Numbered from the stretch's first letter, positions 25,270-48,891 are shown. The stretch is DNA of 64,000 nt from a virus (IMGVR_UViG_3300025732_000016); one strand, 5' to 3'. A program made the numbers and translations. Notes: a model not told the origin generated them from the sequence alone.

Positions 25270-25374
25270 ATGAAATGATTGCGGCTTTGACCCAGAGCCG
25301 CGAACTGGCCGACCTACGATTCGAGCAGGATTGCTGTCAGGATACCTGCGGTTACGATCCCTGATCAGGGGCGA

Positions 25375-25662: not shown

Positions 25663-25699
25663 TATTTTCTCCTTGTGTTGGAAAGGCTAAGTATGGGGA

Positions 25700-25786
25700 C
25701 GGAGACGGCAGGATTTGAACCTGCGACCAGCTTTCGCCGGTGATCCCTTAGCAAGGGATTGGTTTGAGCCGCTCACCCACGTCTCC
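25700..25786 (-). tRNA. tRNA-Ser(GCU), CCA not encoded
   Basis: Cloverleaf with long variable arm; anticodon loop UU-GCU-AA. Confidence 0.9.
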
Positions 25787-25794
25787 AAAGTAAA

Positions 25795-25883
25795 TGGCGG
25801 AAGGAGTGAGATTCGAACTCACGGTGGTGTTTACCCACGGCGGTTTTCAAGACCGCTGCCTTAAACCACTCGGCCATCCTTCC
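25795..25883 (-). tRNA. tRNA-Ser(UGA)
   Basis: Loop CU-UGA-AA; long variable arm; CCA. Confidence 0.95.
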
Positions 25884-25887
25884 ATAA

Positions 25888-25962
25888 TGGAGCCCGAAGT
25901 CGGGATTGAACCGACGACCTGCTGCTTACAAGGCAGCTGCTCTACCACTGAGCTATTCGGGC
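25888..25962 (-). tRNA. tRNA-Thr(UGU)
   Basis: Loop CU-UGU-AA; CCA. Confidence 0.95.
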
Positions 25963-25987
25963 ATTGGTTCCTGTTAGGAACATTGTT

Positions 25988-26016
25988 AATGTAGTCACAC
26001 CGTCAAAGGTGTACAC
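25988..26016 (-). promoter_or_regulatory. Putative sigma70-type promoter for Thr-Ser-Ser tRNAs
   Basis: GTGTAC-N17-TACATT. Confidence 0.45.
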
Positions 26017-26039
26017 ATTGCTCTCAACTTCTTTCGGTT

Positions 26040-26118
26040 CACCAGTTGCTCTCTGTTGAACCCGGGTCCATGGTAAGGTATATCCTAATCACCTAAACCC
26101 GAGTAACACAGAGTATCA
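26040..26118 (+). repeat. Copy A of a duplicated ~78-nt promoter-bearing element (copy B at 53455-53532, minus strand)
   Basis: Shares an exact 17-mer ATGGTAAGGTATATCCT plus flanking blocks with copy B; contains TTGAAC-N17-TATATC. Confidence 0.7.
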
Positions 26119-26159
26119 CAGGGTTCAACGGGTGTCATCGTGGTTTCGGTGTGGAACCT

Positions 26160-27254: not shown

Positions 27255-27258
27255 GATA

Positions 27259-27858
27259 CTAACTATTCGGCCTCACGCCACTTCGCAGGACAATCTCGCA
27301 GATGTGGTCGAGCCTCTCGATGTGCTCGTACGCCGACCATGGGTCACCCGCCACCGAGCACACCCCGTGGTTCGCCTGACCCACGACATCGAAGGCGAGC
27401 TTCCCGTTCCCGTCCAACATCGCGGAGGCAGTCGCACGTGCCAACTCAGGTGATGTGGCAGGCAGGACCGGGACTGTCGGGCCCACCCTCGTGTACCGGC
27501 TCACCTCAGGGAACTCACTTGCGATCCTCTGCAGGTCCCAGCCTGCGTAGACAGCAGCGACAATGTGGGTCGGATGGACATGGACGACTGCACGGGTGGA
27601 GCTGTTACCCAGCTGGAGGAGACGGTGCATCTCCAGTTCACCGGATGGGCTTGAGTCCTTCGGCACGTCAAGCGTCCCGTCGAAGCCGAACCTCACCTTG
27701 ACGACGTGTTCAGGATGGATGATGGTCTTACGCCAGCCGGAGGGTGTGATGTAGAGTGTCTGAGAACCTCTCTTTCGCAGCGAGATGTTACCGTCCCTCG
27801 TAGTTATCCATCCCTTGTCGTAGCATCTCCTCATCACATCACCGATAGCAGTGAGCAT
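27259..27858 (-). CDS. Class II aldolase/adducin-family protein
   Basis: RDGNIS, ITPSG, PSGELEMH, VVHVHP and NHG motifs. Confidence 0.85.
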   Translation of the reverse strand: MLTAIGDVMRRCYDKGWITTRDGNISLRKRGSQTLYITPSGWRKTIIHPEHVVKVRFGFDGTLDVPKDSSPSGELEMHRLLQLGNSSTRAVVHVHPTHIVAAVYAGWDLQRIASEFPEVSRYTRVGPTVPVLPATSPELARATASAMLDGNGKLAFDVVGQANHGVCSVAGDPWSAYEHIERLDHICEIVLRSGVRPNS

Positions 27859-27887
27859 CTTTCCTCCGGGAGGTAAGTATTAAAAGA

Positions 27888-27915
27888 ATATGGCCCGGTA
27901 GAAACCGGGCCATAT
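27888..27915 (-). terminator. Intrinsic terminator after tRNA-Glu
   Basis: 11-bp inverted repeat ATATGGCCCGG/CCGGGCCATAT followed by TCTTTT. Confidence 0.7.
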
Positions 27916-27989
27916 GGCGATCCCACCGGGAGTTGAACCCGGCTTCCGGGGATGAAAACCCCGTGTCCTAACCGATAGACGATGGGATC
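27915..27989 (-). tRNA. tRNA-Glu(UUC)
   Basis: Loop UU-UUC-AU; CCA. Confidence 0.95.
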
Positions 27990-27993
27990 AAAG

Positions 27994-28069
27994 TGGTGGG
28001 ACCAATGGGGATCGAACCCATGACCCTCGGATTAAAAGTCCGGTGCTCTACCTGCTGAGCTATAGTCCC
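27994..28069 (-). tRNA. tRNA-Lys(UUU)
   Basis: Loop CU-UUU-AA; CCA. Confidence 0.95.
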
Positions 28070-28137
28070 AAATGACCGGCCAAAGTTTGACCTATGAGAT
28101 TGTAACAAGCTCTCACAGGTTGACAACTTCTCGGGAA

Positions 28138-28956
28138 CTATTTGATCTTGCAGGTCACTTTCTTCGCCGAAGCCTGATCGCCGAGGTCAACGGGCCAGAG
28201 AGCCTTCGCAGTCGCAGACTTGTCGAGGCCCGCGGGGACCGGGAACGTGATGCCAGTCACTCCCTCGATGGCAGAGATCGAGACTGCGCTGGGGAGCGGG
28301 TCAGAGGGCTGCTTCTCGATCTGCCTGAAGACGAAGGCGAGCGACTCTCCGGTCGTTCCGTCGATGACGATCTTGTAGAGGGAGTCCGGCACAACGACCT
28401 TGCTTTCGCCGATCGTCTTGCTCTTGCCGACCTCGTAGATGTTCCCGGCGTAGACTGTGAGATTGTGCTTCCGTCCCCAAGCCCACGCACGGGTGCTCGC
28501 CTCGATGCCCTTCCAGACTCCCCGGTTGAGGTTCGGGAGCTGCGGGCTCATGTTGCTCATGAGGAACGATTCCTGCTCGGCCTGGAGGCTCCAGCTGAGG
28601 TCGGCGTCGGGAGTGAGGTGACCCTTGTCGTAGCCCGACTTCGCGTAGTCACCGGGAGTGGACCTCCCGTCCTTCGGGAGAGACTCGTCTGCGACAAAAG
28701 CGTCCTTGCGAGGGACGCATCCAACAGTCTCTTCGGGCGTGACAGTCCACGCGGTCCAAACGGGGACCTTCGCGGTGTTGTCGTGGAGAGTCGCATAGCC
28801 CTCTCTGCAGAGGAGAGTCGTGTTCACTTTCTGGGACTGCGGGACTCCCCAGGGAAGCTCAGCCGAGCACTGCTCAATCGGCTTGTTGGGCTTCTGGTCC
28901 CACGCGAGGGCTACCAGAGGAAGCGCGAGCAGTGCTGCAATTACGAGTCTCTTCAT
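28138..28956 (-). CDS. DNA/RNA non-specific endonuclease (His-Me finger) with signal peptide
   Basis: Signal peptide ALA|W; YDKGHLTP, SFLMSNMSPQLPNLNRGVWK and VVVPDSLYK. Confidence 0.9.
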   Translation of the reverse strand: MKRLVIAALLALPLVALAWDQKPNKPIEQCSAELPWGVPQSQKVNTTLLCREGYATLHDNTAKVPVWTAWTVTPEETVGCVPRKDAFVADESLPKDGRSTPGDYAKSGYDKGHLTPDADLSWSLQAEQESFLMSNMSPQLPNLNRGVWKGIEASTRAWAWGRKHNLTVYAGNIYEVGKSKTIGESKVVVPDSLYKIVIDGTTGESLAFVFRQIEKQPSDPLPSAVSISAIEGVTGITFPVPAGLDKSATAKALWPVDLGDQASAKKVTCKIK

Positions 28957-28995
28957 GTTCTCTCCGTGTGCTATGTATGCTTCACGAAGAGAAAG

Positions 28996-29070
28996 TGGTT
29001 GGGGCGGAAGGATTCGAACCTTCGGATGTGGGAGTCAAAGTCCCATGTCTTACCACTTGACGACGCCCCA
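28996..29070 (-). tRNA. tRNA-Gln(UUG)
   Basis: Loop CU-UUG-AC; CCA. Confidence 0.95.
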
Positions 29071-29071
29071 G

Positions 29072-29147
29072 TGGTGCCCCGAGCGGGATTCGAACCCGCC
29101 CTACAGGAATTTTAAGTTCCCTGACTCTGCCGCTGGTCTATCGGGGC
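29072..29147 (-). tRNA. tRNA-Leu(UAA) with short variable loop
   Basis: Loop CU-UAA-AA; only 5 nt in the variable region; CCA. Confidence 0.85.
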
Positions 29148-29151
29148 AAAG

Positions 29152-29235
29152 TGGTGCGCGAAGAGGGACTTGAACCCTCACACCTTCCGGCACGGGCTCC
29201 TAAGACCCGCGTGTCTGCCATTCCACCATTCGCGC
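29152..29235 (-). tRNA. tRNA-Leu(UAG)
   Basis: Loop CU-UAG-GA; long variable arm; CCA. Confidence 0.95.
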
Positions 29236-29240
29236 ATTTG

Positions 29241-29314
29241 TGGTCGGGGTGGCCAGAATCGAACTGGCGATAAATGCTCCCAAAGCACTCGTGTTACCTC
29301 TACACTACACCCCG
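29241..29314 (-). tRNA. tRNA-Pro(UGG)
   Basis: Loop UU-UGG-GA; CCA. Confidence 0.9.
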
Positions 29315-29916
29315 AAAATCTGTCTTAGTCTCTCTTCGATGTTCTCTTTAGACCTGATCCGAACAACATTGTATCCAAGAGAGACCAGCTTTTCATCTCT
29401 GGTTTTGTCTTTTTCGTTCCCTTCTGGGTGCCAGTGCTCACCGTCTATTTCGATCACTAGCTGATCGATGACAAAATCAGCGTAAAAGTTGTCGATTCTG
29501 ACTTGAGTCAGAAACTGGACGTCGTTCTTTGTGAGCCAATCAAAAGCTATTCTTTCCGGGAAAGACATCCTTTGTCTGTTGTTGGAAACGATTCTGTTCG
29601 GATGCTTGTCGGGTGATTCCTTGAATAGTAATTTCTTCTCATCAGAGACTCTCTTTCTTCTTGAATCGTCCCACCAGTCTTTAGTGAATGGAGAAGAGAC
29701 GCTTCCGTCTTTCAACTTTTGCTTCATAATGACAGAATTCTTCTCTGCCATTGAGGCAAGACCGGAGTGATCAGTCTTCTTTACACCGTAGTTCCACGCT
29801 TTCTTGCCTTGCATCCCATTCTTATAGTTTCTGTCTGGATTCTTTGGGCAAGTTCTCTCATGATGAGAGAGAGATCGTTTATTCTTACAGTCTTTTTCGC
29901 AAAATGAGCAGTTCAT
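29305..29916 (-). mobile_element. Free-standing homing-endonuclease-like gene (DUF559/Vsr-like nuclease with N-terminal Zn finger)
   Basis: CSFC...HHERTC; SFPE...FYADF...IEIDGEHWH...RD...GYNVVRI; AT-richer than neighbours; stop codon lies inside tRNA-Pro. Confidence 0.75.
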
Positions 29917-29950
29917 GTCTTAAGTATGAGGCAGACGCTCTACTAAGATG

Positions 29951-30025
29951 TGGTTGTCGAGATCGGGATTGAACCGATGACCCTCGCCTTGTAAGGGCGG
30001 TGCTCTTCCGCTGAGCTACTCGACA
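29951..30025 (-). tRNA. tRNA-Val(UAC)
   Basis: Loop CU-UAC-AA; CCA. Confidence 0.95.
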
Positions 30026-30030
30026 CTGTT

Positions 30031-30107
30031 TGGTAGGTCCGGGCCGACTTGAACGGCCGACCTCTGCCTTATCAGGGCAGCACTCTAACCAGCTGAGCTA
30101 CGAACCT
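30031..30107 (-). tRNA. tRNA-Ile(GAU)
   Basis: Loop CU-GAU-AA; CCA. Confidence 0.95.
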
Positions 30108-30111
30108 TCAG

Positions 30112-30187
30112 TGGTGGAGGCGAGGGGGTTCGAACCCCTGACCCCCGGCTTGCAAAGCCGGTGCTCTCCCAACTGAGCTACGCCCCC
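30112..30187 (-). tRNA. tRNA-Ala(UGC)
   Basis: Loop UU-UGC-AA; G3:U70; CCA. Confidence 0.95.
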
Positions 30188-30199
30188 AAAGGATAGTCT

Positions 30200-30228
30200 A
30201 CTGTATCTGACATCAGGACTTTGTTCAC
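30200..30228 (-). promoter_or_regulatory. Putative sigma70-type promoter for Ala-Ile-Val tRNAs
   Basis: GTGAAC-N17-TACAGT. Confidence 0.5.
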
Positions 30229-30246
30229 CAAATGGGTGAAACGGGA

Positions 30247-30654
30247 CTACTTCCCTGCCGGCTTCACTCTCAGGATCTGGTCCTCGGTCCTATAGCCGAC
30301 GGGTCCTGAAGGGAAGAAGCGACGCTGCATTGCGTCCCAATCGAAAGTCCTTTCGTTACCACTGTCACCCTTGAATTTCAGGTAGCTCTGGTAAGCCTCG
30401 CCGCTGAGACCCTCGCGGCCTGCTCCGAAGAACTTCGTCATGAGACCGAGACCAGACTTCTCGTCCTCACCGGCCTTTGAGACGAGCCAGTCAATGAAGG
30501 TCCAGGTTCCTTCCATCCCATTGATCTCATACTTTGCGCCCTTCTTCAGGACTTTTGCAAAATTCTTCGCATCAAGCTCGACAAATCCCTCCGCCGCCTC
30601 ACGAAGCAGCTCTTCACGGATGACCTGACGTAGACGTGACTCGGTGATTCTCAT
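30247..30654 (-). CDS. Hypothetical protein with N-terminal tag
   Basis: MRITESRLRQVIREELLRE; AATAGATA upstream. Confidence 0.65.
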   Translation of the reverse strand: MRITESRLRQVIREELLREAAEGFVELDAKNFAKVLKKGAKYEINGMEGTWTFIDWLVSKAGEDEKSGLGLMTKFFGAGREGLSGEAYQSYLKFKGDSGNERTFDWDAMQRRFFPSGPVGYRTEDQILRVKPAGK

Positions 30655-30707
30655 TGCGGTAACCCCATTCTGCTCACTATCTATTCGATGAGCAGCAGAC
30701 TTTATGA

Positions 30708-30908
30708 CTATCCTGTCACGTCCTCGACCTCTCCGTCAAAGGAGAGGCAGAGCTCAGGTTCACGAGGGTGCTCCGTTGACCAGTCCATCGAGCACTCCCT
30801 GGAGAAGTGCTCCACCAGCGTGGGATGATTGCGCTCGCACCACTGGCGGAGCGCCTCGTGAACCTCGTCCCTGCTGAAGTAGAGGTTCACCATCTTCATC
30901 TGCCTCAT
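30708..30908 (-). CDS. Hypothetical protein
   Basis: ATGA-coupled small ORF. Confidence 0.5.
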   Translation of the reverse strand: MRQMKMVNLYFSRDEVHEALRQWCERNHPTLVEHFSRECSMDWSTEHPREPELCLSFDGEVEDVTG

Positions 30909-31006
30909 CCGCCCGCCGCCATCACGAGGACTGGCATCGAGAAGAGGACGATGATACCGATGACGACTGCCACAAACTCAATCTTGCTCTTTGTCTCGAA
31001 ACTCAT
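30905..31006 (-). CDS. 33-aa single-pass membrane peptide (not in ORF track)
   Basis: MSFETKSKIEFVAVVIGIIVLFSMPVLVMAAGG; ATGA overlaps at both ends. Confidence 0.55.
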   Translation of the reverse strand: MSFETKSKIEFVAVVIGIIVLFSMPVLVMAAGG

Positions 31007-31320
31007 GCTTGCTCCTTGATCCGAAGTGTTTTGATGGGCTGACCGTAGTTGGTCTTCTCGCTATCCGTAATCTCGAGAAGACCCGCCTTGAGGAGCTTCC
31101 GAATCTGGCGGTGGACGTTGGTGAAGCCGTCTCCCTCCGCAAGGTAGATTCCTGACCTGAACCAGGGCCCCGTCGACCAGATGCTGATGCTACCGAATCC
31201 GATAGCCTCCTCGAAGCTCATCATGCGCATCGTTCCTGGACAGATGTACCCCCTGGAACGGGATGCAACGAGGAACTTGGAGTCCTTGAGCTTGTTGAGC
31301 AGCTCCTGTAGTTCTTCCAT
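31003..31320 (-). CDS. Hypothetical protein
   Basis: TAATG coupling at 31320. Confidence 0.55.
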   Translation of the reverse strand: MEELQELLNKLKDSKFLVASRSRGYICPGTMRMMSFEEAIGFGSISIWSTGPWFRSGIYLAEGDGFTNVHRQIRKLLKAGLLEITDSEKTNYGQPIKTLRIKEQA

Positions 31321-31508
31321 TAGAACGCTCCGGTGAGGAAGGACCACGCGAAACTGAGGATCCACGCCGAGAACCAGATGACGACAGACGAAAGAAACAC
31401 TGCGAGGCTGAATCCGAGAACTCCGTAGGCAAGACCGAGAGTCTTGCTGAATGGGTCATCAGTGAACTCGCTCCAGTGCTTCATTGCGATTGCCTTGACA
31501 CTTTCCAT
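31320..31508 (-). CDS. Small membrane protein
   Basis: RBS AAGGAG; long hydrophobic stretch. Confidence 0.55.
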   Translation of the reverse strand: MESVKAIAMKHWSEFTDDPFSKTLGLAYGVLGFSLAVFLSSVVIWFSAWILSFAWSFLTGAF

Positions 31509-31528
31509 GTTTTCTCCTTTATTCGACA

Positions 31529-32407
31529 TTAGACTTCAGGACAGGGTTGTTCAATCTGATTAAGGGCCCAGTCAACCTGAATGGTTTGTCCGTTTGCCCT
31601 CATCTGGTAGGTGTCACCCCCAATCTCAATGTTCTCCGTCCACTTTCCGAGGAACATGATGAGGTCGGACTTTTCGATGTGACCGCCGCTGGCAAGCCTC
31701 TTCACGGCATTCTGGACGCCGTGGAGGTGACGTTCGGTGAACTCTGGGAAGTTGTCACCCGCAGCCTTCGCAAGCCACTCCACGAGGAGGGGATACGAGG
31801 ACTCCTCGATGCCGTCGTAGCCTCGATACTTCATATACTTCAGGATTCGAGATCCGAGGAACGGAGAGTGGATCTGGTTGATGCGAAGCTTTCGACTGGC
31901 CTCCAACTCGCGCCAGTCCTTCGGATGGATGAGGACATCACCCACCAGGGCAACCTGACAGTTGACCATGTCGAAGCGGGAGATGCATTCCTCTGGGGTC
32001 TTGCTGATAAGGTCAGGCCTGTCGATGAGCTGGACTTTGAAGTTGATGTCCCGCTTCTCAGGGATGGCCGCGGAATTAATCGAGACCCAGTCCATGGTCT
32101 CCTGTGCAAAACCCGCCATGGAACGACGATCCTTGAAGGAGCTCGTCGTCTTCTTGGCGCCCTCCTCCGAGGTGAAGAAGACGTCGACATCGCCTGCGTG
32201 TGTATAGACACCTTTCCCGTCGTCCTGGCTGACGTACTCGTGCAGAGAGTCGCCCCGGAGGAGAGCGCGAGCAAACCCGCCGGCGATGAAACCGCCGTTG
32301 TGAAACGAATTTCGCAAGCGAGCCGAACCGTGGAGAATCGCTCTCATGATCTCCATGTTCTCGCCCTTGACGACATCGAGGACGTGGGTCTCTACGAACT
32401 GGGACAA
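31529..32407 (-). CDS. CCA-adding/poly(A) polymerase head-domain-like nucleotidyltransferase
   Basis: IAGGFARALL..GDVDVFF (GGxxR..DxD) and SRFDMVNCQVA (RRDFTINA-like). Confidence 0.6.
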   Translation of the reverse strand: MSQFVETHVLDVVKGENMEIMRAILHGSARLRNSFHNGGFIAGGFARALLRGDSLHEYVSQDDGKGVYTHAGDVDVFFTSEEGAKKTTSSFKDRRSMAGFAQETMDWVSINSAAIPEKRDINFKVQLIDRPDLISKTPEECISRFDMVNCQVALVGDVLIHPKDWRELEASRKLRINQIHSPFLGSRILKYMKYRGYDGIEESSYPLLVEWLAKAAGDNFPEFTERHLHGVQNAVKRLASGGHIEKSDLIMFLGKWTENIEIGGDTYQMRANGQTIQVDWALNQIEQPCPEV

Positions 32408-32432
32408 TGTGCACCCGTGGTTTGGACGTAGA

Positions 32433-32508
32433 TGGTGGACCGGGTGGGGAACGATCCCACGACCTGCGGATTAAGAGTCCGACGCTCTACCGACTGAGCT
32501 ACCGGTCC
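32433..32508 (-). tRNA. tRNA-Lys(CUU) with atypical T-loop
   Basis: Loop CU-CUU-AA; T-loop AUCGUUC; CCA. Confidence 0.85.
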
Positions 32509-32512
32509 AGTG

Positions 32513-32600
32513 TGGTGGGGAAGGAGAGAATTGAACTCCCGACGTCCTTAGGAACCGGATTTACAGTCCGGTGCTAGCTACCAGCACTAGCAACTTCCCC
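32513..32600 (-). tRNA. tRNA-Tyr(GUA)
   Basis: Loop CU-GUA-AA; long variable arm; CCA. Confidence 0.9.
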
Positions 32601-32604
32601 AAAG

Positions 32605-32681
32605 TGGCCTCCCCTGCAGGACTCGAACCTGCTACCTCCGACTTAGAAGGACGGCGCTCTATCCAGATGAGCTAAGGGGAG
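32605..32681 (-). tRNA. tRNA-Arg(UCU)
   Basis: Loop CU-UCU-AA; CCA. Confidence 0.9.
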
Positions 32682-32735
32682 AAGTTTTATCCGTCTTTCC
32701 GGACCGCCAGACTGGTTATCTCACAATCATTGAAG

Positions 32736-32811
32736 TGGTAGGCGGGGTGGGGTTTGAACCCACGACCGGTCGGATATAAGCCGACTGCTCTGACCGCTGA
32801 GCTACCCGCCT
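32736..32811 (-). tRNA. tRNA-Ile(UAU)
   Basis: Anticodon stem GUCGG/CCGAC; loop CU-UAU-AU; A73; CCA. Confidence 0.9.
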
Positions 32812-32898
32812 GTAAGGGGCAGAGATCTTGTTGAGCAGATTTATTGGCATCCACGACCGGACCAGCATGGTAGAATATAAATCAGGGAACCAGATTGT

Positions 32899-33210
32899 TC
32901 AAAGGCTCCGCAACTTTTCGATCAGGACCTTCACGCTCGACTCGGTGGCCCCGACAAGCGTGTCAATCCGCTCACCGTTGTGAAACCCGATGACGGTTGG
33001 AACGGCCTGCACCTTCATCTTCTGGGAGAACTGCTCACCGCCCTCGATGTCGACGTATGCAAAGACGATATCAGGAGTCTCAAAAGAGATCTTCTCGACC
33101 TTGGGCTTCAGGAGCTTGCAGGGCATGCACCACGTGGCCCCGAACTGGACGATCACGTGAGTGTTGCCGTCGATGAGTTCCTGGATGTTGTCGTCGTTCC
33201 GGTTGATCAT
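32899..33210 (-). CDS. Thioredoxin
   Basis: FGATWCMPCK and VQAVPT. Confidence 0.9.
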   Translation of the reverse strand: MINRNDDNIQELIDGNTHVIVQFGATWCMPCKLLKPKVEKISFETPDIVFAYVDIEGGEQFSQKMKVQAVPTVIGFHNGERIDTLVGATESSVKVLIEKLRSL

Positions 33211-33482
33211 CTCTTCTCCCTGTATGGGGTCACAGAAGCTATGAATTTGGTTGGATCCACTCGCATGTAGCTCTTGGTCGAGTGGGGATTGCCCTCTTCA
33301 GTGCGGACAATCGTAATCTCGTTTGTGAGAAGGTGGTGTTCTACGACCTCAGCGACGTACCTCTTCATGTAGGTGCCGTATCCCCACTTCGTTCCGATCG
33401 CAGGGAACCTTGATGATCGCTGGCGCATGAACCACGCGATGTGAACGGTAGCGGCGATGAGGAGGGATAGCCCGAACAGCAT
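33207..33482 (-). CDS. Hypothetical protein with N-terminal membrane anchor
   Basis: Hydrophobic N-terminus; ATGA overlap. Confidence 0.5.
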   Translation of the reverse strand: MLFGLSLLIAATVHIAWFMRQRSSRFPAIGTKWGYGTYMKRYVAEVVEHHLLTNEITIVRTEEGNPHSTKSYMRVDPTKFIASVTPYREKR

Positions 33483-33499
33483 TGCTATGGGACTAAGTA

Positions 33500-33576
33500 T
33501 GGCTCCCGATCCCTGATTTGAACAGGGGACCCACGGATTAACAGTCCGTTGCTCTAACCAACTGAGCTAATCGGGA
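33500..33576 (-). tRNA. tRNA-Asn(GUU)
   Basis: Loop CU-GUU-AA; CCA. Confidence 0.95.
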
Positions 33577-33582
33577 ATGAAG

Positions 33583-33656
33583 TGGAGCGGGCACCGGGAT
33601 TCGAACCCGGTTATCCAGCTTGGAAGGCTGGTGCACAACCCATATGCCATGCCCGC
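33583..33656 (-). tRNA. tRNA-Gly(UCC)
   Basis: Loop CU-UCC-AA; U73; CCA. Confidence 0.95.
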
Positions 33657-33665
33657 GATTTGAAA

Positions 33666-33760
33666 GAACATGGAGACCCGGAGCTTGTACAGCGTCGGCC
33701 AACCCGGTTCGGCTGTGCTCCCCACTCACATGGGATACTGTACACCCGCCGTCCATGTTC
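33666..33760 (-). ncRNA. Candidate unknown structured ncRNA (three-way junction)
   Basis: 9-bp closing stem, 7-bp UGUACAG/CUGUACA stem and two hairpins (one GUGA tetraloop), between tRNA-Arg and tRNA-Gly. Confidence 0.55.
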
Positions 33761-33764
33761 AAAG

Positions 33765-33841
33765 TGGCGTCCACGACAGGATTCGAACCTGTGACCTATC
33801 GCTTAGGAAGCGATTGCTCTATCCAGCTGAGCTACGAGGAC
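33765..33841 (-). tRNA. tRNA-Arg(CCU)
   Basis: Loop UU-CCU-AA; CCA. Confidence 0.95.
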
Positions 33842-43389: not shown

Positions 43390-43878
43390 ATGGATCCGTT
43401 AGACACGACTGGCGAGCTCGTTGAACCGCCTCCCGCTGATGAAGCTGCCGCGCCTGTTGTCGAGGGATCCTCGACTGGTGCAAATCTCGTTGAAGTTGCT
43501 GATGCAAAATCGCAAACTATCGCGCTTGACAAGGATGGCGACAAGATTTACCCGAGCCTGTATGACACAGTCCCAACAACATTCGGGGCAATCGTTCTCG
43601 GCGGTCTCATCATCGGCGGCATTCAGTGGATAGTGAAGAAGATCTTCGAGCGTGAAAAGAAGGAGCACAAGGCTCTCACGCAGTTTGTCACTTCGATGTT
43701 TGCTTTCATCATTGGAGTTTGGATCGCTGACAAGATCATCGCGGGACCCACAGCTAACATTCTCGACCCAGCTGAGAGCAAGGAACTTCTCACCTTCATC
43801 AAGGACATCACGCTGATGGTGTTCGCATACTACTTCGGAACAAAAGCGAACGTTCCAAAGGATGACGTCGATGGATAA
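43390..43878 (+). CDS. Three-TM membrane protein, holin-like
   Basis: Three hydrophobic segments; C-terminal MVFAYYFGT. Confidence 0.5.
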   Translation: MDPLDTTGELVEPPPADEAAAPVVEGSSTGANLVEVADAKSQTIALDKDGDKIYPSLYDTVPTTFGAIVLGGLIIGGIQWIVKKIFEREKKEHKALTQFVTSMFAFIIGVWIADKIIAGPTANILDPAESKELLTFIKDITLMVFAYYFGTKANVPKDDVDG

Positions 43879-44356
43879 CGCAGCAGACATCATTAGCGCC
43901 GCAGGAGGCGGCAACATCTGGGCCGTGCTCGGTCTCGCTATCTCAGGCGCCCTCGGCAAGTACGCTTGGGACTTCTACAAGAAAAAGGCTGACCTCAACT
44001 TCAAGGAGAAGGACAACCTCCGCAAGGACAGCAAGGAAGAGCGTCTCCTCGACCGCAAGGAGAAGAACGAGTTCAAGGACGACCTGAAGGAGAGAGTGGC
44101 CGCTCTTGAAGTGAAGCTCGAGGCGGCATTGCAGGCGAAGGAGGACCTCCTCGAGCAGGTTGGAGAGCTGAAGGCGAAGCTCGCCAAGATCGAAACCAAG
44201 CTCGAGATCCTCCTCGCGGGCGGCAAGGTTGCGCCAGAGCCGCCCACAGACGAGAAGCCGAAACCCAGGGCAAAAGCGAAGGCCGCGCCTGCACCCACAC
44301 CAGCTCCAGAGCCGACGCCCGCTCCGAAGCGTGGCCGAGCCAAGAAGAATGGCTGA
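43871..44356 (+). CDS. Membrane-anchored coiled-coil protein
   Basis: TM WAVLGLAISGALG; long heptad region; Pro/Lys tail. Confidence 0.6.
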   Translation: MDNAADIISAAGGGNIWAVLGLAISGALGKYAWDFYKKKADLNFKEKDNLRKDSKEERLLDRKEKNEFKDDLKERVAALEVKLEAALQAKEDLLEQVGELKAKLAKIETKLEILLAGGKVAPEPPTDEKPKPRAKAKAAPAPTPAPEPTPAPKRGRAKKNG

Positions 44357-45026
44357 TCCTTGTTTCATCAAATCCGGTGAGATTGTCACAATAGACGACC
44401 CACGTTTAAGTGACACTGATTGCGTGATAGAGGCGGGCGTCATCATTCGTCCGCCCGCAGACGAGACAACAGTCAAGGAAGTCGAGAAACATGTTGAGGA
44501 GAAGACAGAGGTCAAGGAGATAAAGCACACTGTCAAGAAGAGGGTGGAACTACCCTTAGAACCAGAGCCTCCTCCCGCTGTAGTTGAGACTCCTCCAGTC
44601 AAGACTGTTGTTACAAATCCGACAACAGTCTCTACAGCAGCAACAGCGGTTCCTGCCCCTGCTCCAAAGGAAGAAATTTACTTTGGGATGTCACCTGAAA
44701 TGGCGACTGTTGCAGCAGTTGGCACAATCGCTGCAGTGGGTGGTGCGGTCGCAGCTTCAACGATGGGAGGTTTCAGTGCTGTTCAAGCAAAGCTCGCTTC
44801 GATCTTTGGTTCAAAAGCTGCTGCAACTGCTACAGCGGCGGTCGCAGTGACGGCGGGAACCATCGCCGCCGTGAAGGCCCTCGAGGGAAAGGTGGGCAAG
44901 TTCGAGGAGGACATGAAGAAGGCGAAGGAGGAGGTCGGTGGTGCAGCCTCTTCAATCGACCGGATCGATGCCCTACTGAGCCGGCTTGGCGGCGACAACG
45001 ACGACGAACTCGACCCTTCGGTTTAG
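44349..45026 (+). CDS. Membrane protein with Pro/Thr-rich linker and Ala-rich TM hairpin
   Basis: ATG 44349 overlaps the upstream gene; two Ala/Gly-rich hydrophobic segments. Confidence 0.55.
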   Translation: MADPCFIKSGEIVTIDDPRLSDTDCVIEAGVIIRPPADETTVKEVEKHVEEKTEVKEIKHTVKKRVELPLEPEPPPAVVETPPVKTVVTNPTTVSTAATAVPAPAPKEEIYFGMSPEMATVAAVGTIAAVGGAVAASTMGGFSAVQAKLASIFGSKAAATATAAVAVTAGTIAAVKALEGKVGKFEEDMKKAKEEVGGAASSIDRIDALLSRLGGDNDDELDPSV

Positions 45027-48000
45027 GGCCTGCCCCTCGGGAGTCCCGGAGGTGTCGAGCGGTGCCGTGTCTCCCTTACCCTCGATGGAGATGCGCCCCG
45101 CATCGACACCCTTGCCGATGAGGTAGTCAGCAGCGACCTTCGCTCTTTCCCGTGAGAGTTCCTCAGGGTGCTTGAACTCCATTTCCGAGGAGTCCGCGTA
45201 TCCGACGACCTTCACGCCGTATCCCGGTCGAAGATTAAGGACCGTCCAGACACCGTCGAGTGTCGCCCGGGCCTTAGTGTTGAGCTTCGTGTCGCCTGGA
45301 AGGAAACCGATTCCGACCTCCTGCTTCGGAGGTAAGGTGACATCAGGCTTCGCCGGGACTACTATCACGATGGGCTGGAGCGGTTCTTCCTGAACCTTAC
45401 ACTCACATGCGGTCTGGGGCGAAACTTCGGGAGTAGCGTCTTCCTCTTCCTCATCTGAGGGACCGAAAGTAATCTGCATTGTTGCCTGCCAATCTCCATC
45501 GCCAGGTTGACGAATGACACCCTTGCTCAGTGCACCGCCAATCGAGAAGTTGCCGACAGTCCACTCCAGTGAAGACCCTATGAAGAGAGATGAGACAGGC
45601 GACTCTCCAAGGTTGTGAAACGCCTGCGAGTCTACTCCAATCGTGAAGTCGCCGACTGAATAAGATCCTGCCGCCGTGATGTAGGGCCCGGATCCAAGCT
45701 CGTATCCTTCGAGATCGACCTTCGGGTAGACCATGAAACCAGCCCCGAGGAGCCCCCCGACGTTACCGAACTGGGCCTCGGCTCCTGCTTCGAGTGTCGT
45801 TGCCCACCCAGGATGTGAGACACCGAGTCCTACTCCGGTGGGAGCAACCAACGACACATCGCCGTAGGCTCCCAGGCCATCGACACTGAAGGCTTTCGAG
45901 TTCACGCGGAGACCGCCCCAGACATCACCGAGGCGAACTACTCCATCGTTAGCGATGGATGCTGGCACGCCGAAGTCGACAGAGAAGTGCTCGAAAGTGT
46001 AACGATTGGTCGTCCAGCCCCAGTAGACGTCATCGATGACCACGACCTCGTCACCCTGCGGGTTGATGTAGGAGAGGGGATCGGTGACCACACCACCGAC
46101 GATGGCAGTCTCATCTCCGAGGAACCTCGACTCACCCCTCGGTGGGAGGGGCACCACACTCATCTCGGGGACCTCACCCCCAGAAGCTCCCATCAGGAGC
46201 GGGAATCCGAGGAGGAAAGAGAAGAGGCCCCTCCGCCTTGAGGCGAGCACCGCGCCGAGGGTCATGAGAATGAGGCTTCCGCTTCCACCGCCGCCGGTCG
46301 TGGAGCAACCGCCGCCCGGGACATATGACCCCTTCGGAGCGGGATTCTCGTCCGTGTCATCGACCGGTGGGGCGCCAGTCTCGTCGGCACTATCAACGGC
46401 TGAATCGGAACCGGTATCGATCGAGGTATCGTGGCCACTGTCGCCCGTGTCGATCACCACACCGCTGTCACCAGAATCTCCTGTATCGATTGGCCTGTCA
46501 TCGACAGGATCACATGCATCACCGACTCCGTCTCCATCAACGTCGGACTGGTCATTGGAGAGACCTGGACAGTTGTCGGTCACATCGTCAGCCCCGTCTC
46601 CGTCGGCGTCTGGATCGCAGATATCACCAAGACCGTCTCCGTCGATGTCTGCTTGGTCGGAGTTGAAGGCATCCGAGCAGTTGTCAGATAGACCGCAGAG
46701 CCCGTCCTCATCAGCGTCGTTTGTCGCATCATCCGGACAGGCATCGACATCACCACAGATTCCGTCGGCATCGATGTCGTTGTCAGCATCGAACTCGCAT
46801 GGATCGGTGTCGGCACATGCTCCGTCACCATCGACATCGTCGCTTGGATCGAGCGGGCAGACGTCCAGTGATTCACAGGCTCCGTCGCCGTCCCGATCAT
46901 CGAGGGAGTCATTGGGGCAGATGTCCTCGTCACCGCAGGTCCCGTCACCGTCGATGTCGTTCAGCTCATCGAGCGGGCAGGTGTCACAGTCATCTGAGAG
47001 GCCGTCCTCGTCCGAATCTACCGTGTCATCAGCGCCCGGGCAGATATCTGCAGAATCGCAGGATCCGTCACCGTCGGAATCATCGGCTGAGTCCGCCGGG
47101 CAGGCATCGCAACCATTCGGGATGCCATCACTGTCAGTATCGAGTGTGTCATCAGCGCCCGGGCAGATATCGTCGGAGTCGCATGAACCATCCGCATCAC
47201 TGTCACCGAGTGCATCGAATGGGCAGGTGTCGCAACCGTCGGGGGTGTAGTCACCATCAGTGTCGATGCGGTCATCTGAGCCGGGGCAGATGTCGTTCTC
47301 AGCACAGACGCCATCGGAATCGGAGTCATTGTCTGCGTCATACTTGCAGGCATCGCAACCATTCGGGATGCCATCTGAGTCGGAATCCACCAGGTCACTG
47401 TAGCCCTCGCAGACATCCACATCTCCGCAGACTCCGTCACCGTCAGCGTCATCGTATGGGTCTGACGGGCAAGAGTCGCAGCCATCTGGCGTGTAATCAG
47501 CGTCCGCATCAGCGAGGTCATCGTATCCTTCGCAGGCATCAACATCACCGCAGACACCGTCGGCATCTGCGTCGTCATACGGATCGGATGGGCAGGAATC
47601 GGAGGAGTCTGGGATTCCGTCGCCGTCCGCATCCGGTTCAACAGGGGCTTCGGCGCAGTCCGTTGCAGCGGAGACCGCAGTCTCGTCAAGGGTGTAGATG
47701 ACCCTGAATGTCTCGGACTGCCCAGGAGCCATATCACCGAGGCTCACCGCAAGCGAGATCGCCGCATCATCGGAGACCGAAGATCCCACTGTGGAGTAGA
47801 ATCCTGAGCCGTTCCAGATGTCCGAGGCATCGGTGTTGAAGAACCCACCATGGGTGACCCTTGCACGACTGTCGGAGGCGATGAGGTAGAGATCCGCGCC
47901 ATCTCCCCCGGTCGCCCTAACTGAGGCAAGATCGGTGGATGAGTCAGGTTGCGAGATGATGGTGTTCGTGGTCGAGTAGTCGTATGTCGTCATCACAGAG

Positions 48001-48554
48001 TTGTCAGGATCGACGTTCCTGAACCAGTAGACGTCCGACAGGGTCGATGAGCCGTTGTTGGTGAGGGTGACAGTCATCACGACGTAGACCTCGTCATTGA
48101 CGACACCGTACTGGGTCTCTACCCCGAGGTCTCCCACCGCGCCGGTCCATGTCACCGCACCGCCGAGGTTTCCGCAGATATCGACCTCACATGCGGGGTC
48201 TCCGAGGGAGCCTGCGATGCCATTCGTCCAGCCGTTTGTGTTGTCGTATGCGACCCCGTTGAACTCAACGCCCCAGCCCTCGAGAGGAGAGCCGGGTGAG
48301 AAGAAGTCACCGTAGTAGCTCGACCAGCCGTTCCGCTGCGGGTTCGCCACGAAACCGAGTTGGCCTGTGTTCGACCGGTAGTGCCATCCAGAAGGGTAAC
48401 CGCCCTCTCCGAAAGCGCCCTCGGAGCCGATGCCGAACTCAACGTATTCGTTACGAATAAAAGCTGATGAACCAGGATCATTGACTTCACAAAAACCTGA
48501 TGCCTGGGCCAGCGTTGGCGTGAGGAACAAAAGTGATAGAAGTATTTTACGCAT
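44973..48554 (-). CDS. Large surface protein: signal peptide + globular domain + TSP3-like Cys/Asp repeats + internal MYXO-CTERM-like motif + beta-barrel-like region + OmpA C-terminal domain
   Basis: Many DxDxDGxxDxxDxCP repeats; GGGCSTTGGGGSGSLILMTLGAVLASRRR; OmpA motifs VVGYADS, LSRERAKVA and NRRVEF. Confidence 0.8.
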   Translation of the reverse strand: MRKILLSLLFLTPTLAQASGFCEVNDPGSSAFIRNEYVEFGIGSEGAFGEGGYPSGWHYRSNTGQLGFVANPQRNGWSSYYGDFFSPGSPLEGWGVEFNGVAYDNTNGWTNGIAGSLGDPACEVDICGNLGGAVTWTGAVGDLGVETQYGVVNDEVYVVMTVTLTNNGSSTLSDVYWFRNVDPDNSVMTTYDYSTTNTIISQPDSSTDLASVRATGGDGADLYLIASDSRARVTHGGFFNTDASDIWNGSGFYSTVGSSVSDDAAISLAVSLGDMAPGQSETFRVIYTLDETAVSAATDCAEAPVEPDADGDGIPDSSDSCPSDPYDDADADGVCGDVDACEGYDDLADADADYTPDGCDSCPSDPYDDADGDGVCGDVDVCEGYSDLVDSDSDGIPNGCDACKYDADNDSDSDGVCAENDICPGSDDRIDTDGDYTPDGCDTCPFDALGDSDADGSCDSDDICPGADDTLDTDSDGIPNGCDACPADSADDSDGDGSCDSADICPGADDTVDSDEDGLSDDCDTCPLDELNDIDGDGTCGDEDICPNDSLDDRDGDGACESLDVCPLDPSDDVDGDGACADTDPCEFDADNDIDADGICGDVDACPDDATNDADEDGLCGLSDNCSDAFNSDQADIDGDGLGDICDPDADGDGADDVTDNCPGLSNDQSDVDGDGVGDACDPVDDRPIDTGDSGDSGVVIDTGDSGHDTSIDTGSDSAVDSADETGAPPVDDTDENPAPKGSYVPGGGCSTTGGGGSGSLILMTLGAVLASRRRGLFSFLLGFPLLMGASGGEVPEMSVVPLPPRGESRFLGDETAIVGGVVTDPLSYINPQGDEVVVIDDVYWGWTTNRYTFEHFSVDFGVPASIANDGVVRLGDVWGGLRVNSKAFSVDGLGAYGDVSLVAPTGVGLGVSHPGWATTLEAGAEAQFGNVGGLLGAGFMVYPKVDLEGYELGSGPYITAAGSYSVGDFTIGVDSQAFHNLGESPVSSLFIGSSLEWTVGNFSIGGALSKGVIRQPGDGDWQATMQITFGPSDEEEEDATPEVSPQTACECKVQEEPLQPIVIVVPAKPDVTLPPKQEVGIGFLPGDTKLNTKARATLDGVWTVLNLRPGYGVKVVGYADSSEMEFKHPEELSRERAKVAADYLIGKGVDAGRISIEGKGDTAPLDTSGTPEGQALNRRVEFVVVVAAKPAQ

Positions 48555-48600
48555 ACCTCTATCTATGTTATTCGCGCGTAGAGACTGACGAAAATTCAGA

Positions 48601-48891
48601 TTAAGAGCTGACGGCCTCGACAAAGCGAGAGTCTACCAGAAGACGACCTGCCTCTGACATGCACCAGTAGTACACTCGATTCTCTATCTTGTTCTCAGTG
48701 AGGGTCACCGCGGGCGACTCGACTCTCTCTACGACGAGAGCATTGATGTTTGCGACAATCTTCTTCTTACCCTTCAACTTGAGAGTTCCCTCCCTGGTGT
48801 TCTCTACGCTTGACCAGCCGTAGGGAGGTTCAATGCCTTCACAGTCCCAGGGCACGATGCGCACAATGTCACCATTCTCAAACTTACTCAC
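48601..48891 (-). CDS. Hypothetical SH3-like protein
   Basis: FENGDIVRI; GTGA/ATGA coupling. Confidence 0.55.
   Translation of the reverse strand: MSKFENGDIVRIVPWDCEGIEPPYGWSSVENTREGTLKLKGKKKIVANINALVVERVESPAVTLTENKIENRVYYWCMSEAGRLLVDSRFVEAVSS

What the first reader, a model, noticed from the sequence alone, without database searches (positions are those of the whole stretch)
44973..48554. Adhesin-MYXO-CTERM-barrel-OmpA fusion resembling a one-gene TraA/TraB pair
Seen: signal peptide, a globular domain of about 300 aa, many Cys/Asp TSP3-like repeats and a DTG linker. These are followed by GGGCSTT...TM...RRR (MYXO-CTERM-like) in the middle of the protein, then a second hydrophobic signal-like stretch (LFSFLLGFPLLMGA), a beta-strand-rich region and an OmpA domain. 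Established: MYXO-CTERM is normally C-terminal. The kin-recognition system uses TraA (variable domain, Cys-rich repeats, MYXO-CTERM) with TraB (beta-barrel, TSP3, OmpA). Inference: host processing could split this polyprotein into a surface adhesin and an outer-membrane anchor, so that infected cells adhere to or exchange membrane with neighbours. The resemblance is architectural only; here the TSP3 repeats lie before the sorting motif.
Basis: partly seen in the sequence, partly recalled or inferred. Interest (0 to 1): 0.75.

Follow-up and report, generated by a model that had tools for sequence, protein, structure and literature searches.

The report
Phage-borne fused adhesin and membrane anchor
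A giant phage carries one long gene that joins a sugar-binding-type surface adhesin to an outer-membrane barrel with a cell-wall anchor, linked by a myxobacterial sorting tag followed at once by a second signal peptide; it is a fused relative of the two-gene TraA/TraB-type cassette that myxobacteria use for cell-to-cell contact.

Summary
Window 44973-48554 (-) encodes a 1193-aa protein with these parts in order:
- a signal peptide;
- a ~290-aa beta-sandwich head;
- ~390 aa of Cys/Asp calcium-type repeats and an acidic linker;
- an internal Cys-motif/TM/RRR segment that passes the MYXO-CTERM model narrowly;
- a second n-h-c signal-peptide-like segment;
- a predicted 12-stranded outer-membrane barrel and an OmpA domain.

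The layout is not an artefact. It recurs in 11 close homologues and in 28 of the 150 best 50%-identity clusters, including chromosomal genes of Myxococcota MAGs. Other phage contigs carry the same two halves as separate genes overlapping by one base.

The barrel is remotely homologous to the TraB-type barrel (hhalign 98.1%, through intermediates that hit the TraB model). The protein is not a TraA or TraB orthologue: the head matches a galactose-mutarotase-like supersandwich and gives no PA14 hit.

Best reading (inferred, untested): one precursor is cut by signal peptidase and a host myxosortase into a surface adhesin and its barrel/peptidoglycan anchor, displayed on infected cells.

The host, the cleavage and the role are all unproven. 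The scan noted this same stretch once more in an overlapping window; no note on other DNA was found.

The parts
44973..48554 (-). Whole gene: 1193-aa precursor plus stop codon
   Evidence: ORF list and translation. There are 11 full-length homologues of 64-92% identity.
48501..48554 (-). N-terminal Sec signal peptide, residues 1-18, ending AQA|S
   Evidence: Read directly from the sequence. The hydrophobic N-terminus with A-x-A is kept in the homologues.
47640..48500 (-). Head domain, residues 19-305: galactose-mutarotase-like beta supersandwich, a carbohydrate-binding-type fold
   Evidence: AF2 model, pLDDT 72. VIA-align gives Z 16.6 with 220 residues aligned at rmsd 3.5 to the GH116 N-terminal domain, and Z 15-16 to GH94 N-terminal domains. 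Foldseek agrees. There is no Pfam family hit.
46485..47639 (-). Stalk, residues 306-690: Cys/Asp-rich calcium-binding repeats of thrombospondin type 3 kind
   Evidence: 32% Asp, 35 Cys, periodic Cys spacing. Pfam TSP_3 30.9 bits. The NCBIfam MtsC model gives a partial match of 70-73 bits, below its cut-off.
46317..46484 (-). Acidic D/T/G/S-rich flexible linker, residues 691-746
   Evidence: Sequence. Length varies between homologues.
46230..46316 (-). Internal MYXO-CTERM-type sorting signal, residues 747-775: GGGC motif (Cys750), hydrophobic helix, RRR
   Evidence: On the 61-aa segment, TIGR03901 scores 22.5 bits (cut-off 20) and TIGR03382 scores 21.2 (cut-off 15.85). Scored inside the 777-aa N-terminal half, TIGR03901 gives only 16.9 bits. 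The Cys is invariant in A2.
46182..46229 (-). Internal signal-peptide-like segment, residues 776-791. The RRR cluster doubles as its n-region, the h-region is LFSFLLGFPLL, and it ends MGA|S or GAS|G
   Evidence: The n-h-c pattern with an AxA-type end holds in all fused lineages even though the sequence itself diverges. Split homologues have an ordinary N-terminal signal peptide at the same place.
45450..46181 (-). Predicted 12-stranded outer-membrane beta-barrel, residues 792-1035, of TraB type
   Evidence: AF2 strands with pLDDT 70-88. VIA-align gives Z 18.5 to the COG4313 channel and to FapF, and Z 17-18 to autotransporter beta-domains, with about 220 residues aligned. Foldseek E 4e-8. hhalign to TraB-like barrels gives 98.1%, E 1e-13.
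45324..45449 (-). Low-confidence linker, residues 1036-1077, holding an invariant C-x-C (residues 1050 and 1052)
   Evidence: pLDDT below 50. C1050 and C1052 are invariant in A1.
44976..45323 (-). OmpA-like peptidoglycan-binding domain, residues 1078-1193
   Evidence: PF00691 55.3 bits. VIA-align Z 16.3 at rmsd 2.3 to the A. baumannii OmpA-like domain. The GYAD and NRRVE motifs are present.

Best explanation
The gene encodes a precursor that fuses the two members of a TraA/TraB-type envelope cassette.

**Shown by sequence, profile and fold comparison**
- The N-terminal half is a secreted lectin-like head on a calcium/disulfide-stiffened stalk that ends in a MYXO-CTERM-type tag.
- The C-terminal half is a TraB-type 12-stranded outer-membrane barrel with an OmpA peptidoglycan-binding domain.
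- The joint between them is a two-helix hairpin. The Arg cluster of the sorting tag also serves as the n-region of a second signal peptide.

**Inferred processing**
1. The Sec system exports the N-terminal half.
2. The tag helix stops transfer, and the second hydrophobic segment restarts export.
3. Signal peptidase I cuts after that segment and frees the barrel-OmpA protein, which BAM inserts into the outer membrane.
4. A host myxosortase-type CPBP protease cuts the lipidated Cys tag and frees the adhesin for surface display.

**Inferred consequence and role**
- The two products arise in a 1:1 ratio. By analogy to TraA/TraB they would work together as a surface adhesin tied to the outer membrane and cell wall.
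- For the phage, the most likely use is to change the surface of the infected cell (probably of Myxococcota type). It could make the cell stick to glycans on neighbours or particles, or mask its own surface glycans against further phage adsorption.
For: **Architecture is conserved**
- The layout is kept in 11 close homologues.
- It is also kept in very divergent phage lineages with other heads, such as the H-type lectin head of P0021 on a 141-kb phage contig.
- It appears in 28 of the 150 best 50%-identity representatives.

**The junction behaves as tag plus signal peptide**
- Every fused form has G-x-C, a TM helix and a basic cluster, followed by a 10-15-residue h-region that ends AxA before Q/E/D.

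**Split forms exist**
- In L002 the adhesin ends with the tag at its true C-terminus. The next gene overlaps it (TGATG) and encodes signal peptide, barrel and OmpA.
- hhalign of the split second genes against the window's C-terminal half gives 99.1%, E 1.8e-18 over 277 columns.
- The cellular locus L014 has a 1683-aa protein ending in a MYXO-CTERM, 2 nt upstream of a TraB-like gene.

**Tag scores**
- The window segment scores 22.5 bits against a cut-off of 20.
- Cellular fused homologues score 20.8-27.5 bits.

**Barrel and OmpA folds**.

**Link to TraB**
- Barrels of the ~600-aa split relatives hit NF033763 positions 13-350, up to 66 bits, E 1.4e-18.
- The window-clade barrel against those barrels gives 98.1%, E 1e-13.

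**Published background**
- traA and traB overlap in an operon (PMC3325183).
- TraB consists of a signal peptide, a barrel, TSP3 repeats and an OmpA domain, and forms 1:1 complexes with TraA (PMC12045341).
- MrtX cleaves MYXO-CTERM and the cleavage depends on the Cys (PMC11980579).

**The head is a phage surface-display module**
- A 642-kb phage, LR756502.1, carries the same head (38% identity) joined to a CHU_C type IX secretion sorting domain at 61.7 bits.
Against: - No cleavage, localisation or binding has been observed. Every processing step is inferred from sequence.
- The tag match is borderline. It scores 16.9 bits when scored inside the long N-terminal half. The close phage relatives P0008 and P0011 score 17.3 and 18.9, and the AT-rich lineages do not match the model.
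- The host is unknown. No CPBP/myxosortase gene was found in the window or in five related viral fragments that are 14-39% complete.
- In three small-phage split cassettes (L008-L010) the second gene product has no signal peptide at all. The simple export model does not explain this.
- The head was not found in 185,579 species genomes by pattern scan, so no host counterpart guides its ligand.
- The TSP3-type repeats lie in the adhesin half, not between barrel and OmpA as in TraB.
Confidence: 0.6

Rival explanations
1. The protein is an uncleaved inner-membrane protein. The two hydrophobic segments form a permanent hairpin, so both large parts stay in the periplasm. The OmpA domain ties the inner membrane to peptidoglycan and the repeats act in the periplasm, for example to disturb the envelope or block DNA entry by other phages.
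For: - Two adjacent hydrophobic segments separated by RRRG are what a helical hairpin looks like.
- No cleavage has been shown.
- The tag score is borderline.
Against: - The second segment has only about 11-14 hydrophobic residues and an AxA-type end in all lineages, which is the signature of a signal peptide rather than a TM helix.
- Split homologues make the C-terminal half as a separate secreted protein.
- The beta region matches 12-stranded outer-membrane barrels at Z 17-18.5. Such a barrel cannot reach the outer membrane while still tethered.
Confidence: 0.12
2. The protein is a functional outer-membrane-exchange device. The processed pair acts like TraA/TraB, so infected cells bind neighbours and fuse outer membranes. 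This would spread receptors or aid cell-to-cell spread.
For: - The organisation matches traAB, and the barrel is remotely homologous to TraB's.
- The lectin-like head on a stalk parallels TraA's layout (PMC3325183).
- Fused homologues occur in Myxococcota.
Against: - The head gave no PA14 hit, the fold search found a supersandwich, and nothing shows it binds itself.
- The protein scores 30-33 bits on the TraB model against a cut-off of 700.
- The TraB-like family is much wider than the exchange system. Many cassettes have unrelated heads, so homology does not carry the fusogen function with it.
Confidence: 0.1
3. The protein is an autotransporter-like secretion unit. The C-terminal barrel is the export pore or platform through which the N-terminal adhesin reaches the surface, rather than only an anchor.
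For: - The barrel matches autotransporter beta-domains (EstA, Hbp, AIDA-I, NalP) and the secretion pore FapF at Z 16.7-18.5.
- Passenger-then-barrel order in one polypeptide is the type V logic.
Against: - The same scores go to non-secretory 12-stranded barrels (COG4313, KdgM, NanC).
- A stop-transfer helix and basic cluster between passenger and barrel do not fit type V export.
- An OmpA domain follows the barrel, whereas type V barrels are C-terminal.
- Known MYXO-CTERM proteins use the type II system (PMC11980579).
Confidence: 0.08
4. The fusion is an artefact. It would come from an assembly or frameshift error that joined two genes, or from a decaying gene.
For: Split two-gene forms exist in other phages.
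Against: The open fused frame recurs in independent samples and sources, from 92% down to under 20% identity, in both phage and cellular contigs. The junction is under clear constraint.
Confidence: 0.01

Closest known systems
TraA/TraB outer-membrane-exchange pair of Myxococcus xanthus (PMC3325183, PMC12045341)
   Same: - The order of parts matches: signal peptide, lectin-type head, Cys-rich stalk, MYXO-CTERM, then signal peptide, outer-membrane barrel and OmpA domain.
- The genes are coupled: traA and traB overlap by 4 nt, the split phage forms overlap by 1 nt, and here the two are fused.
- The barrel is remotely homologous.
- TraA and TraB form 1:1 complexes, which gives a rationale for a fusion.
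   Different: - This is one polypeptide.
- The head matches a supersandwich fold and gives no PA14 hit.
- The stalk is made of TSP3-type repeats, with no TIGR04201 hit.
- There are no TSP3 repeats between barrel and OmpA.
- The TraB model score is 30-33 bits against a cut-off of 700.
- The gene is phage-borne, and no evidence exists for homotypic recognition or membrane fusion.
MYXO-CTERM surface proteins processed by myxosortase MrtX/MrtC/MrtP, e.g. MtsC (PMC11980579; bioRxiv 10.1101/2023.06.07.544157)
   Same: - The tripartite tag has an invariant Cys, a TM helix and an Arg cluster, and it passes TIGR03901 on the segment.
- The TSP3-type repeats give a partial match to the MtsC model.
   Different: - The tag is internal, with 417 residues following it, and it is fused to a signal peptide.
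- The papers read do not mention internal tags, OmpA fusions or phages.
Outer-membrane and surface-display proteins of phages: lambda Lom/Bor, and huge-phage beta-barrel proteins and sortase B modules (bioRxiv 10.64898/2026.10.24.761521)
   Same: - A phage gene places a protein in or on the host envelope.
- The split cassette sits between the endolysin and the terminase, a classic moron slot.
- Huge phages from freshwater often encode barrels.
   Different: - Those are single barrels or Gram-positive sortase substrates.
- That preprint contains no mention of Myxococcota, thrombospondin repeats or adhesins in its main text.
- Here an adhesin and its barrel/peptidoglycan anchor are made from one precursor using a Gram-negative Cys-type tag.
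Type V autotransporters
   Same: A passenger and a 12-stranded barrel lie in one polypeptide, and the barrel fold is similar.
   Different: - A membrane hairpin with a sorting tag lies between passenger and barrel.
- An OmpA domain follows the barrel.
- Two independent products are predicted.
Viral polyproteins with internal signal sequences cut by host signal peptidase (flavivirus type; from general knowledge, not tested here)
   Same: The logic is the same: stop-transfer and restart-transfer segments with a signal-peptidase site split one precursor into separate membrane or secreted proteins.
   Different: Those are eukaryotic viruses using the endoplasmic reticulum and have no sequence relation. 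I found no description of such an arrangement for bacteria or phages in the papers read or in three full-text searches.

Membership tests
MYXO-CTERM sorting domain (TIGR03901 / TIGR03382) | Signature motif with an invariant Cys, then a hydrophobic helix, then an Arg-rich cluster | tested here: met
   GGGC (Cys750), residues 759-772 hydrophobic, RRR at 773-775. The Cys is invariant in 22 sequences.
MYXO-CTERM sorting domain (TIGR03901 / TIGR03382) | Score at or above the curated model cut-off | tested here: inconclusive
   On the 61-aa segment, 22.5 bits against 20 and 21.2 against 15.85. Inside the 777-aa N-terminal half, only 16.9 and 15.8 bits. Cellular fused homologues pass at 20.8-27.5 bits.
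MYXO-CTERM sorting domain (TIGR03901 / TIGR03382) | Located at the extreme C-terminus of the protein | tested here: not met
   417 residues follow the Arg cluster. In split homologues the tag is terminal.
MYXO-CTERM sorting domain (TIGR03901 / TIGR03382) | Cleaved by a myxosortase (CPBP protease) present in the same cell | not testable with these tools
   The host is unknown and no whole genome is held. No PF02517 match was found in five related viral fragments, and none was seen in the window.
TraA (kin-recognition receptor) | PA14-like variable domain | tested here: inconclusive
   No PA14 Pfam hit. The head matches a different fold, the galactose-mutarotase-like supersandwich, at Z 16.6 over 220 residues.
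TraA (kin-recognition receptor) | TIGR04201-type Cys-rich repeats, or a TraA family model match | tested here: not met
   An NCBIfam scan of the N-terminal half at E up to 1 lists only MtsC, Omp28-related and MYXO-CTERM-linked models. The repeats are of TSP3 type.
TraB (NF033763) | Whole-protein score at or above the cut-off of 700 bits | tested here: not met
   30.1-32.8 bits, and only over the OmpA part.
TraB (NF033763) | N-terminal outer-membrane barrel homologous to TraB's | tested here: met
   The link is indirect. The window barrel alone gives no hit. Barrels of its relatives do hit model positions 13-350 (66, 38 and 37 bits), and fused cellular forms score 27.6 and 21.7 bits. hhalign of A6 against A7 gives 98.1%, E 1e-13 over 241 columns.
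TraB (NF033763) | TSP3 repeats between barrel and OmpA domain | tested here: not met
   The linker at residues 1036-1077 has no TSP3 match. The TSP3 hits lie at residues 592-687.
OmpA-like peptidoglycan-binding domain (PF00691) | Pfam gathering score and OmpA-like fold | tested here: met
   55.3 bits against 27.2. Z 16.3 at rmsd 2.3.
Type V autotransporter | Barrel at the C-terminus, joined to the passenger by a pore-filling linker without membrane-stop segments | tested here: not met
   A hairpin with a basic cluster precedes the barrel and an OmpA domain follows it.

The most novel reading that the evidence does not exclude
The phage uses a working TraAB-like adhesin and fusogen. After processing, infected cells bind neighbouring cells and exchange outer membrane with them. 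This could hand phage receptors to neighbours or otherwise promote local spread, so a virus would be hijacking a bacterial social-contact machine.
Probability: 0.08. Interest if true: 0.9.

Novelty: new variant of a known kind. Interest (0 to 1): 0.62.

Why it matters
**For envelope biology.** The finding points to an undescribed way of making two envelope proteins from one gene in bacteria and phages. A C-terminal sorting tag abuts a signal peptide, so two membrane proteases would release an adhesin and its outer-membrane/cell-wall anchor in equal amounts. This is a natural test case for how myxosortase recognises its substrate when the tag is not terminal.

**For the TraA/TraB system.** The pair appears to be one member of a much wider family of 'tagged surface protein plus TraB-like barrel' cassettes. 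That may help explain what TraB-type barrels do in general.

**For phage biology.** It adds a Gram-negative, Cys-tag-based surface-display system to the envelope-remodelling genes of giant phages. The same head is joined to different, apparently host-matched sorting signals: a MYXO-CTERM type here and a type IX domain in a 642-kb phage. It also hints that the host of this uncultured phage belongs to the Myxococcota or to a lineage with the same sorting system.

Tried and rejected
- **Complex prediction.** Barrel (A6) with the stalk end and linker (A5) returned 'no answer' (score 0.00). It counts neither for nor against binding.
- **Phage-borne myxosortase.** A minus-strand ORF at 43943-44677 with three hydrophobic stretches and an EExxxR string looked promising. 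It is low-complexity, has no Pfam match, and lies antisense to two better plus-strand genes, so I rejected it. A PF02517 search of five related viral records found nothing, but those records are only 14-39% complete.
- **Head domain in cellular genomes.** The pattern scan of 185,579 species genomes found none. This is limited by the two patterns used.
- **Wider genome scans.** A single-protein scan found fused relatives in four MAGs, two of them labelled Myxococcota.
- **Head of the cellular cassette L014 against the phage head.** hhalign gave 11.6%, not significant.
- **Nearby DNA in the phage collection.** No match.
- **Barrel-only word search.** It found only the 12 close homologues.
- **Host from the tmRNA tag.** The tag ANNTDHFSEALAA was not informative to me.
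- **Whole genome of the window.** Not held.

Full report
**What is there.**
The minus-strand ORF 44973..48623 most likely starts at the ATG at 48554, behind a GAGG, and gives 1193 residues. The window is phage DNA: it has PHROG matches to structural and tail-fibre proteins, a helicase and PhoH, as well as an ATP-dependent ligase, two methyltransferases, 19 tRNAs and a tmRNA. Earlier notes of this scan call it an uncultured freshwater giant phage. I did not test that. Related viral contigs are rated 14-39% complete at 13-132 kb, which fits a genome of a few hundred kb.

**Anatomy of the protein.**
- Residues 1-18 are a Sec signal peptide ending AQA.
- Residues 19-305 fold as an all-beta domain (mean pLDDT 72).
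- The best structural matches of that domain are the N-terminal supersandwich domains of GH116, GH94, GH15 and GH65 enzymes and the galactose mutarotases. The top match has Z 16.6, 220 residues aligned, rmsd 3.5 (Foldseek agrees).
- This is a carbohydrate-binding-type fold. No PA14 hit was found by Pfam.
- Residues 300-690 hold 35 cysteines and 32% aspartate in strict periodic spacing, with Pfam TSP_3 above threshold. This looks like a calcium- and disulfide-stiffened stalk.
- A D/T/G/S-rich linker leads to GGGC (Cys750), a hydrophobic helix and RRR (residues 747-775).
- As a 61-residue segment, this scores 22.5 bits on TIGR03901 (cut-off 20) and 21.2 on TIGR03382 (cut-off 15.85). Scored within the long N-terminal half, it reaches only 16.9 bits. 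The match is real but borderline.
- One glycine later comes a second hydrophobic stretch ending MGAS (residues 776-791).
- Residues 803-1032 are modelled as a beta-barrel (pLDDT mostly 70-88). It aligns with 12-stranded outer-membrane barrels: the COG4313 channel and FapF at Z 18.5, autotransporter beta-domains at Z 16.7-18.4, and KdgM and NanC (Foldseek E 4e-8).
- After a low-confidence linker with an invariant C-x-C, residues 1084-1179 are an OmpA domain (55.3 bits; Z 16.3).

**The fusion is real and widespread.**
- Eleven full-length homologues of 64-92% identity keep every part and the junction.
- More distant proteins keep the plan with other sequences. AT-rich lineages have the same head (P0017, P0019, P0020, P0033, P0034). 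Lineages such as P0021, P0024, P0035, P0038 and P0044 have a different head; P0021, the one scanned, has an H-type lectin domain (31.6 bits) and sits on a 141-kb phage-like marine contig.
- An exhaustive profile search of 1.84 billion representatives followed by a motif screen found 28 of the best 150 clusters with an internal Cys-motif/helix/basic cluster, then a second hydrophobic segment and more than 250 further residues.
- Some of these are chromosomal genes. P0243 lies among housekeeping genes on a 95-kb contig of an NCBI assembly. P0236 lies on a Myxococcota MAG contig next to a histidine kinase and a response regulator.
- Relatives of P0236 that span the junction occur in three further MAGs, one of them labelled Myxococcota.
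- The internal tags of these cellular proteins pass TIGR03901 at 20.8-27.5 bits.

**The junction reads as tag plus signal peptide.**
Across all lineages the sequence after the basic cluster is unconserved in letters but constant in form. It has 10-15 hydrophobic residues and a small-x-small end, followed by Q, E or D. Examples are AHA|ED, IDA|QT, AKA|QE, ANA|QT and ALA|QT. The residues after that point align with the mature N-termini of stand-alone relatives that carry ordinary N-terminal signal peptides. The basic cluster therefore serves twice: as the cytoplasmic anchor of the sorting tag and as the n-region of the signal peptide.

**Split versions exist.**
- On the phage-like contig L002, a 934-aa protein has the same head (71% identity) and ends with a Cys-tag, a helix and RRVR at its true C-terminus.
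- The next gene overlaps its stop codon (TGATG) and encodes a signal peptide, a beta region and an OmpA domain.
- Three smaller phages (L008-L010) have the same pair between the endolysin and the terminase.
- A profile comparison of these second genes with the window's C-terminal half gives 99.1% probability and E 1.8e-18 over 277 columns that include the barrel.
- On the cellular contig L014, a 1683-aa protein ending in a canonical MYXO-CTERM stops 2 nt before a 600-aa gene encoding a signal peptide, a barrel and an OmpA domain.
- This is the traA/traB arrangement. Those two genes overlap by four bases (PMC3325183), and TraB is a signal peptide, a barrel, TSP3 repeats and an OmpA domain (PMC12045341).

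**Relation to TraA/TraB.**
- The window protein scores only 30-33 bits on the TraB model (cut-off 700), and only in the OmpA part. Its barrel alone gives no hit.
- The barrels of its ~600-aa relatives do hit the barrel part of the TraB model, positions 13-350, at up to 66 bits and E 1.4e-18. Fused cellular forms hit at 27.6 and 21.7 bits.
- The window-clade barrel aligns with those barrels at 98.1% probability and E 1e-13 over 241 columns.
- The C-terminal half is therefore a remote relative of TraB, not an orthologue.
- The N-terminal half is only analogous to TraA. It shares the plan of lectin-type head, Cys-rich stalk and tag, but the head matches a different fold, the repeats are of a different kind, and no TraA model matches.

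**How it most likely works (inferred).**
1. Sec exports the head and stalk.
2. The tag helix stops transfer with RRR in the cytoplasm, and the following segment re-enters the translocon.
3. Signal peptidase I cuts after it and releases the barrel-OmpA protein for BAM-dependent insertion.
4. The adhesin stays held by the tag until a host myxosortase cuts it at the lipidated Cys. This is how MrtX processes TraA (PMC11980579).

A fusion guarantees equal amounts of both products, which fits the 1:1 TraA-TraB complexes (PMC12045341). I put the two-cut model at about 0.6.

**What the phage gains is open.**
- The heads are sugar-binding-type domains (a supersandwich here, an H-type lectin in P0021).
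- The same head occurs in the 642-kb phage LR756502.1, joined to Ig-like repeats and a CHU_C type IX secretion domain (61.7 bits).
- So different phages appear to display this head with whatever sorting signal their host reads.
- Adhesion of infected cells, or masking of surface glycans against further adsorption, are the most likely roles. A true membrane-exchange function is possible but unsupported.
- A recent preprint shows that huge phages often encode outer-membrane barrels and sortase-based display modules. In its main text I found no mention of Myxococcota, thrombospondin repeats or adhesins (10.64898/2026.10.24.761521).
- The myxosortase papers I read do not mention internal tags, OmpA fusions or phages.

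**Weak points.**
- Nothing about processing has been observed.
- The host is unknown, and no CPBP protease was found in the phage fragments available.
- The tag score is marginal for the phage clade.
- In L008-L010 the second gene product lacks any signal peptide, which my model does not explain.

**Verdict.**
This is a new variant of a known kind: a fused, phage-borne member of a broad TraAB-like cassette family. Its value lies mainly in the internal tag/signal-peptide junction and its testability.

Noticed in passing
L008 3996-7111; L009 5460-8545; L010 6001-9356: In three small-phage split cassettes the barrel/OmpA-like gene overlaps the adhesin's stop codon by one base (TGATG or TAATG). 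Its product starts MPWPV.. with no hydrophobic signal segment, although it is homologous to the window's barrel half. How it would leave the cytoplasm is unexplained; frameshifting or coupled re-initiation are possible.
   Followed up: partly
L011 4839-7535 (LR756502.1, 642-kb uncultured phage): The same head domain (38% identity) sits on an 898-aa protein with Ig-like repeats and a CHU_C type IX secretion sorting domain (61.7 bits). The head seems to be a phage surface-display module joined to different, apparently host-matched sorting signals.
   Followed up: partly
window 45399-45407: An invariant C-x-C (residues 1050 and 1052) lies in the otherwise variable linker between barrel and OmpA domain in all 11 close homologues. 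Its role is unknown.
   Followed up: no
window 43390-44356 (+): Two overlapping plus-strand genes converge on the adhesin gene. One is a 162-aa protein with two hydrophobic helices and the other a 164-aa coiled-coil protein with only weak sub-threshold Pfam matches. A long antisense ORF (43943-44677, -) over them is low-complexity and probably not a gene.
   Followed up: partly
L001 10001-14224: A 141-kb marine phage-like contig carries a 1407-aa fused form with an H-type lectin head, the variant tag GGWGCSTSS, and an OmpA-like end that has lost the usual NRRVE motif.
   Followed up: partly
window 24903-33841 (-): A tmRNA gene (tag ANNTDHFSEALAA) and 19 tRNA genes lie in clusters, including tRNA-Ile(UAU).
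   Followed up: no
L014 1947-8803: A cellular contig carries a 1683-aa MYXO-CTERM protein directly followed by a 600-aa TraB-like protein. This suggests that traAB-like pairs with unrelated heads are common beyond the exchange system itself.
   Followed up: partly
L018, L019: Two MAG contigs labelled 'uncultured Enterobacterales' carry fused forms 58% identical to the Myxococcota MAG protein P0236. The label may be a binning or naming error.
   Followed up: no
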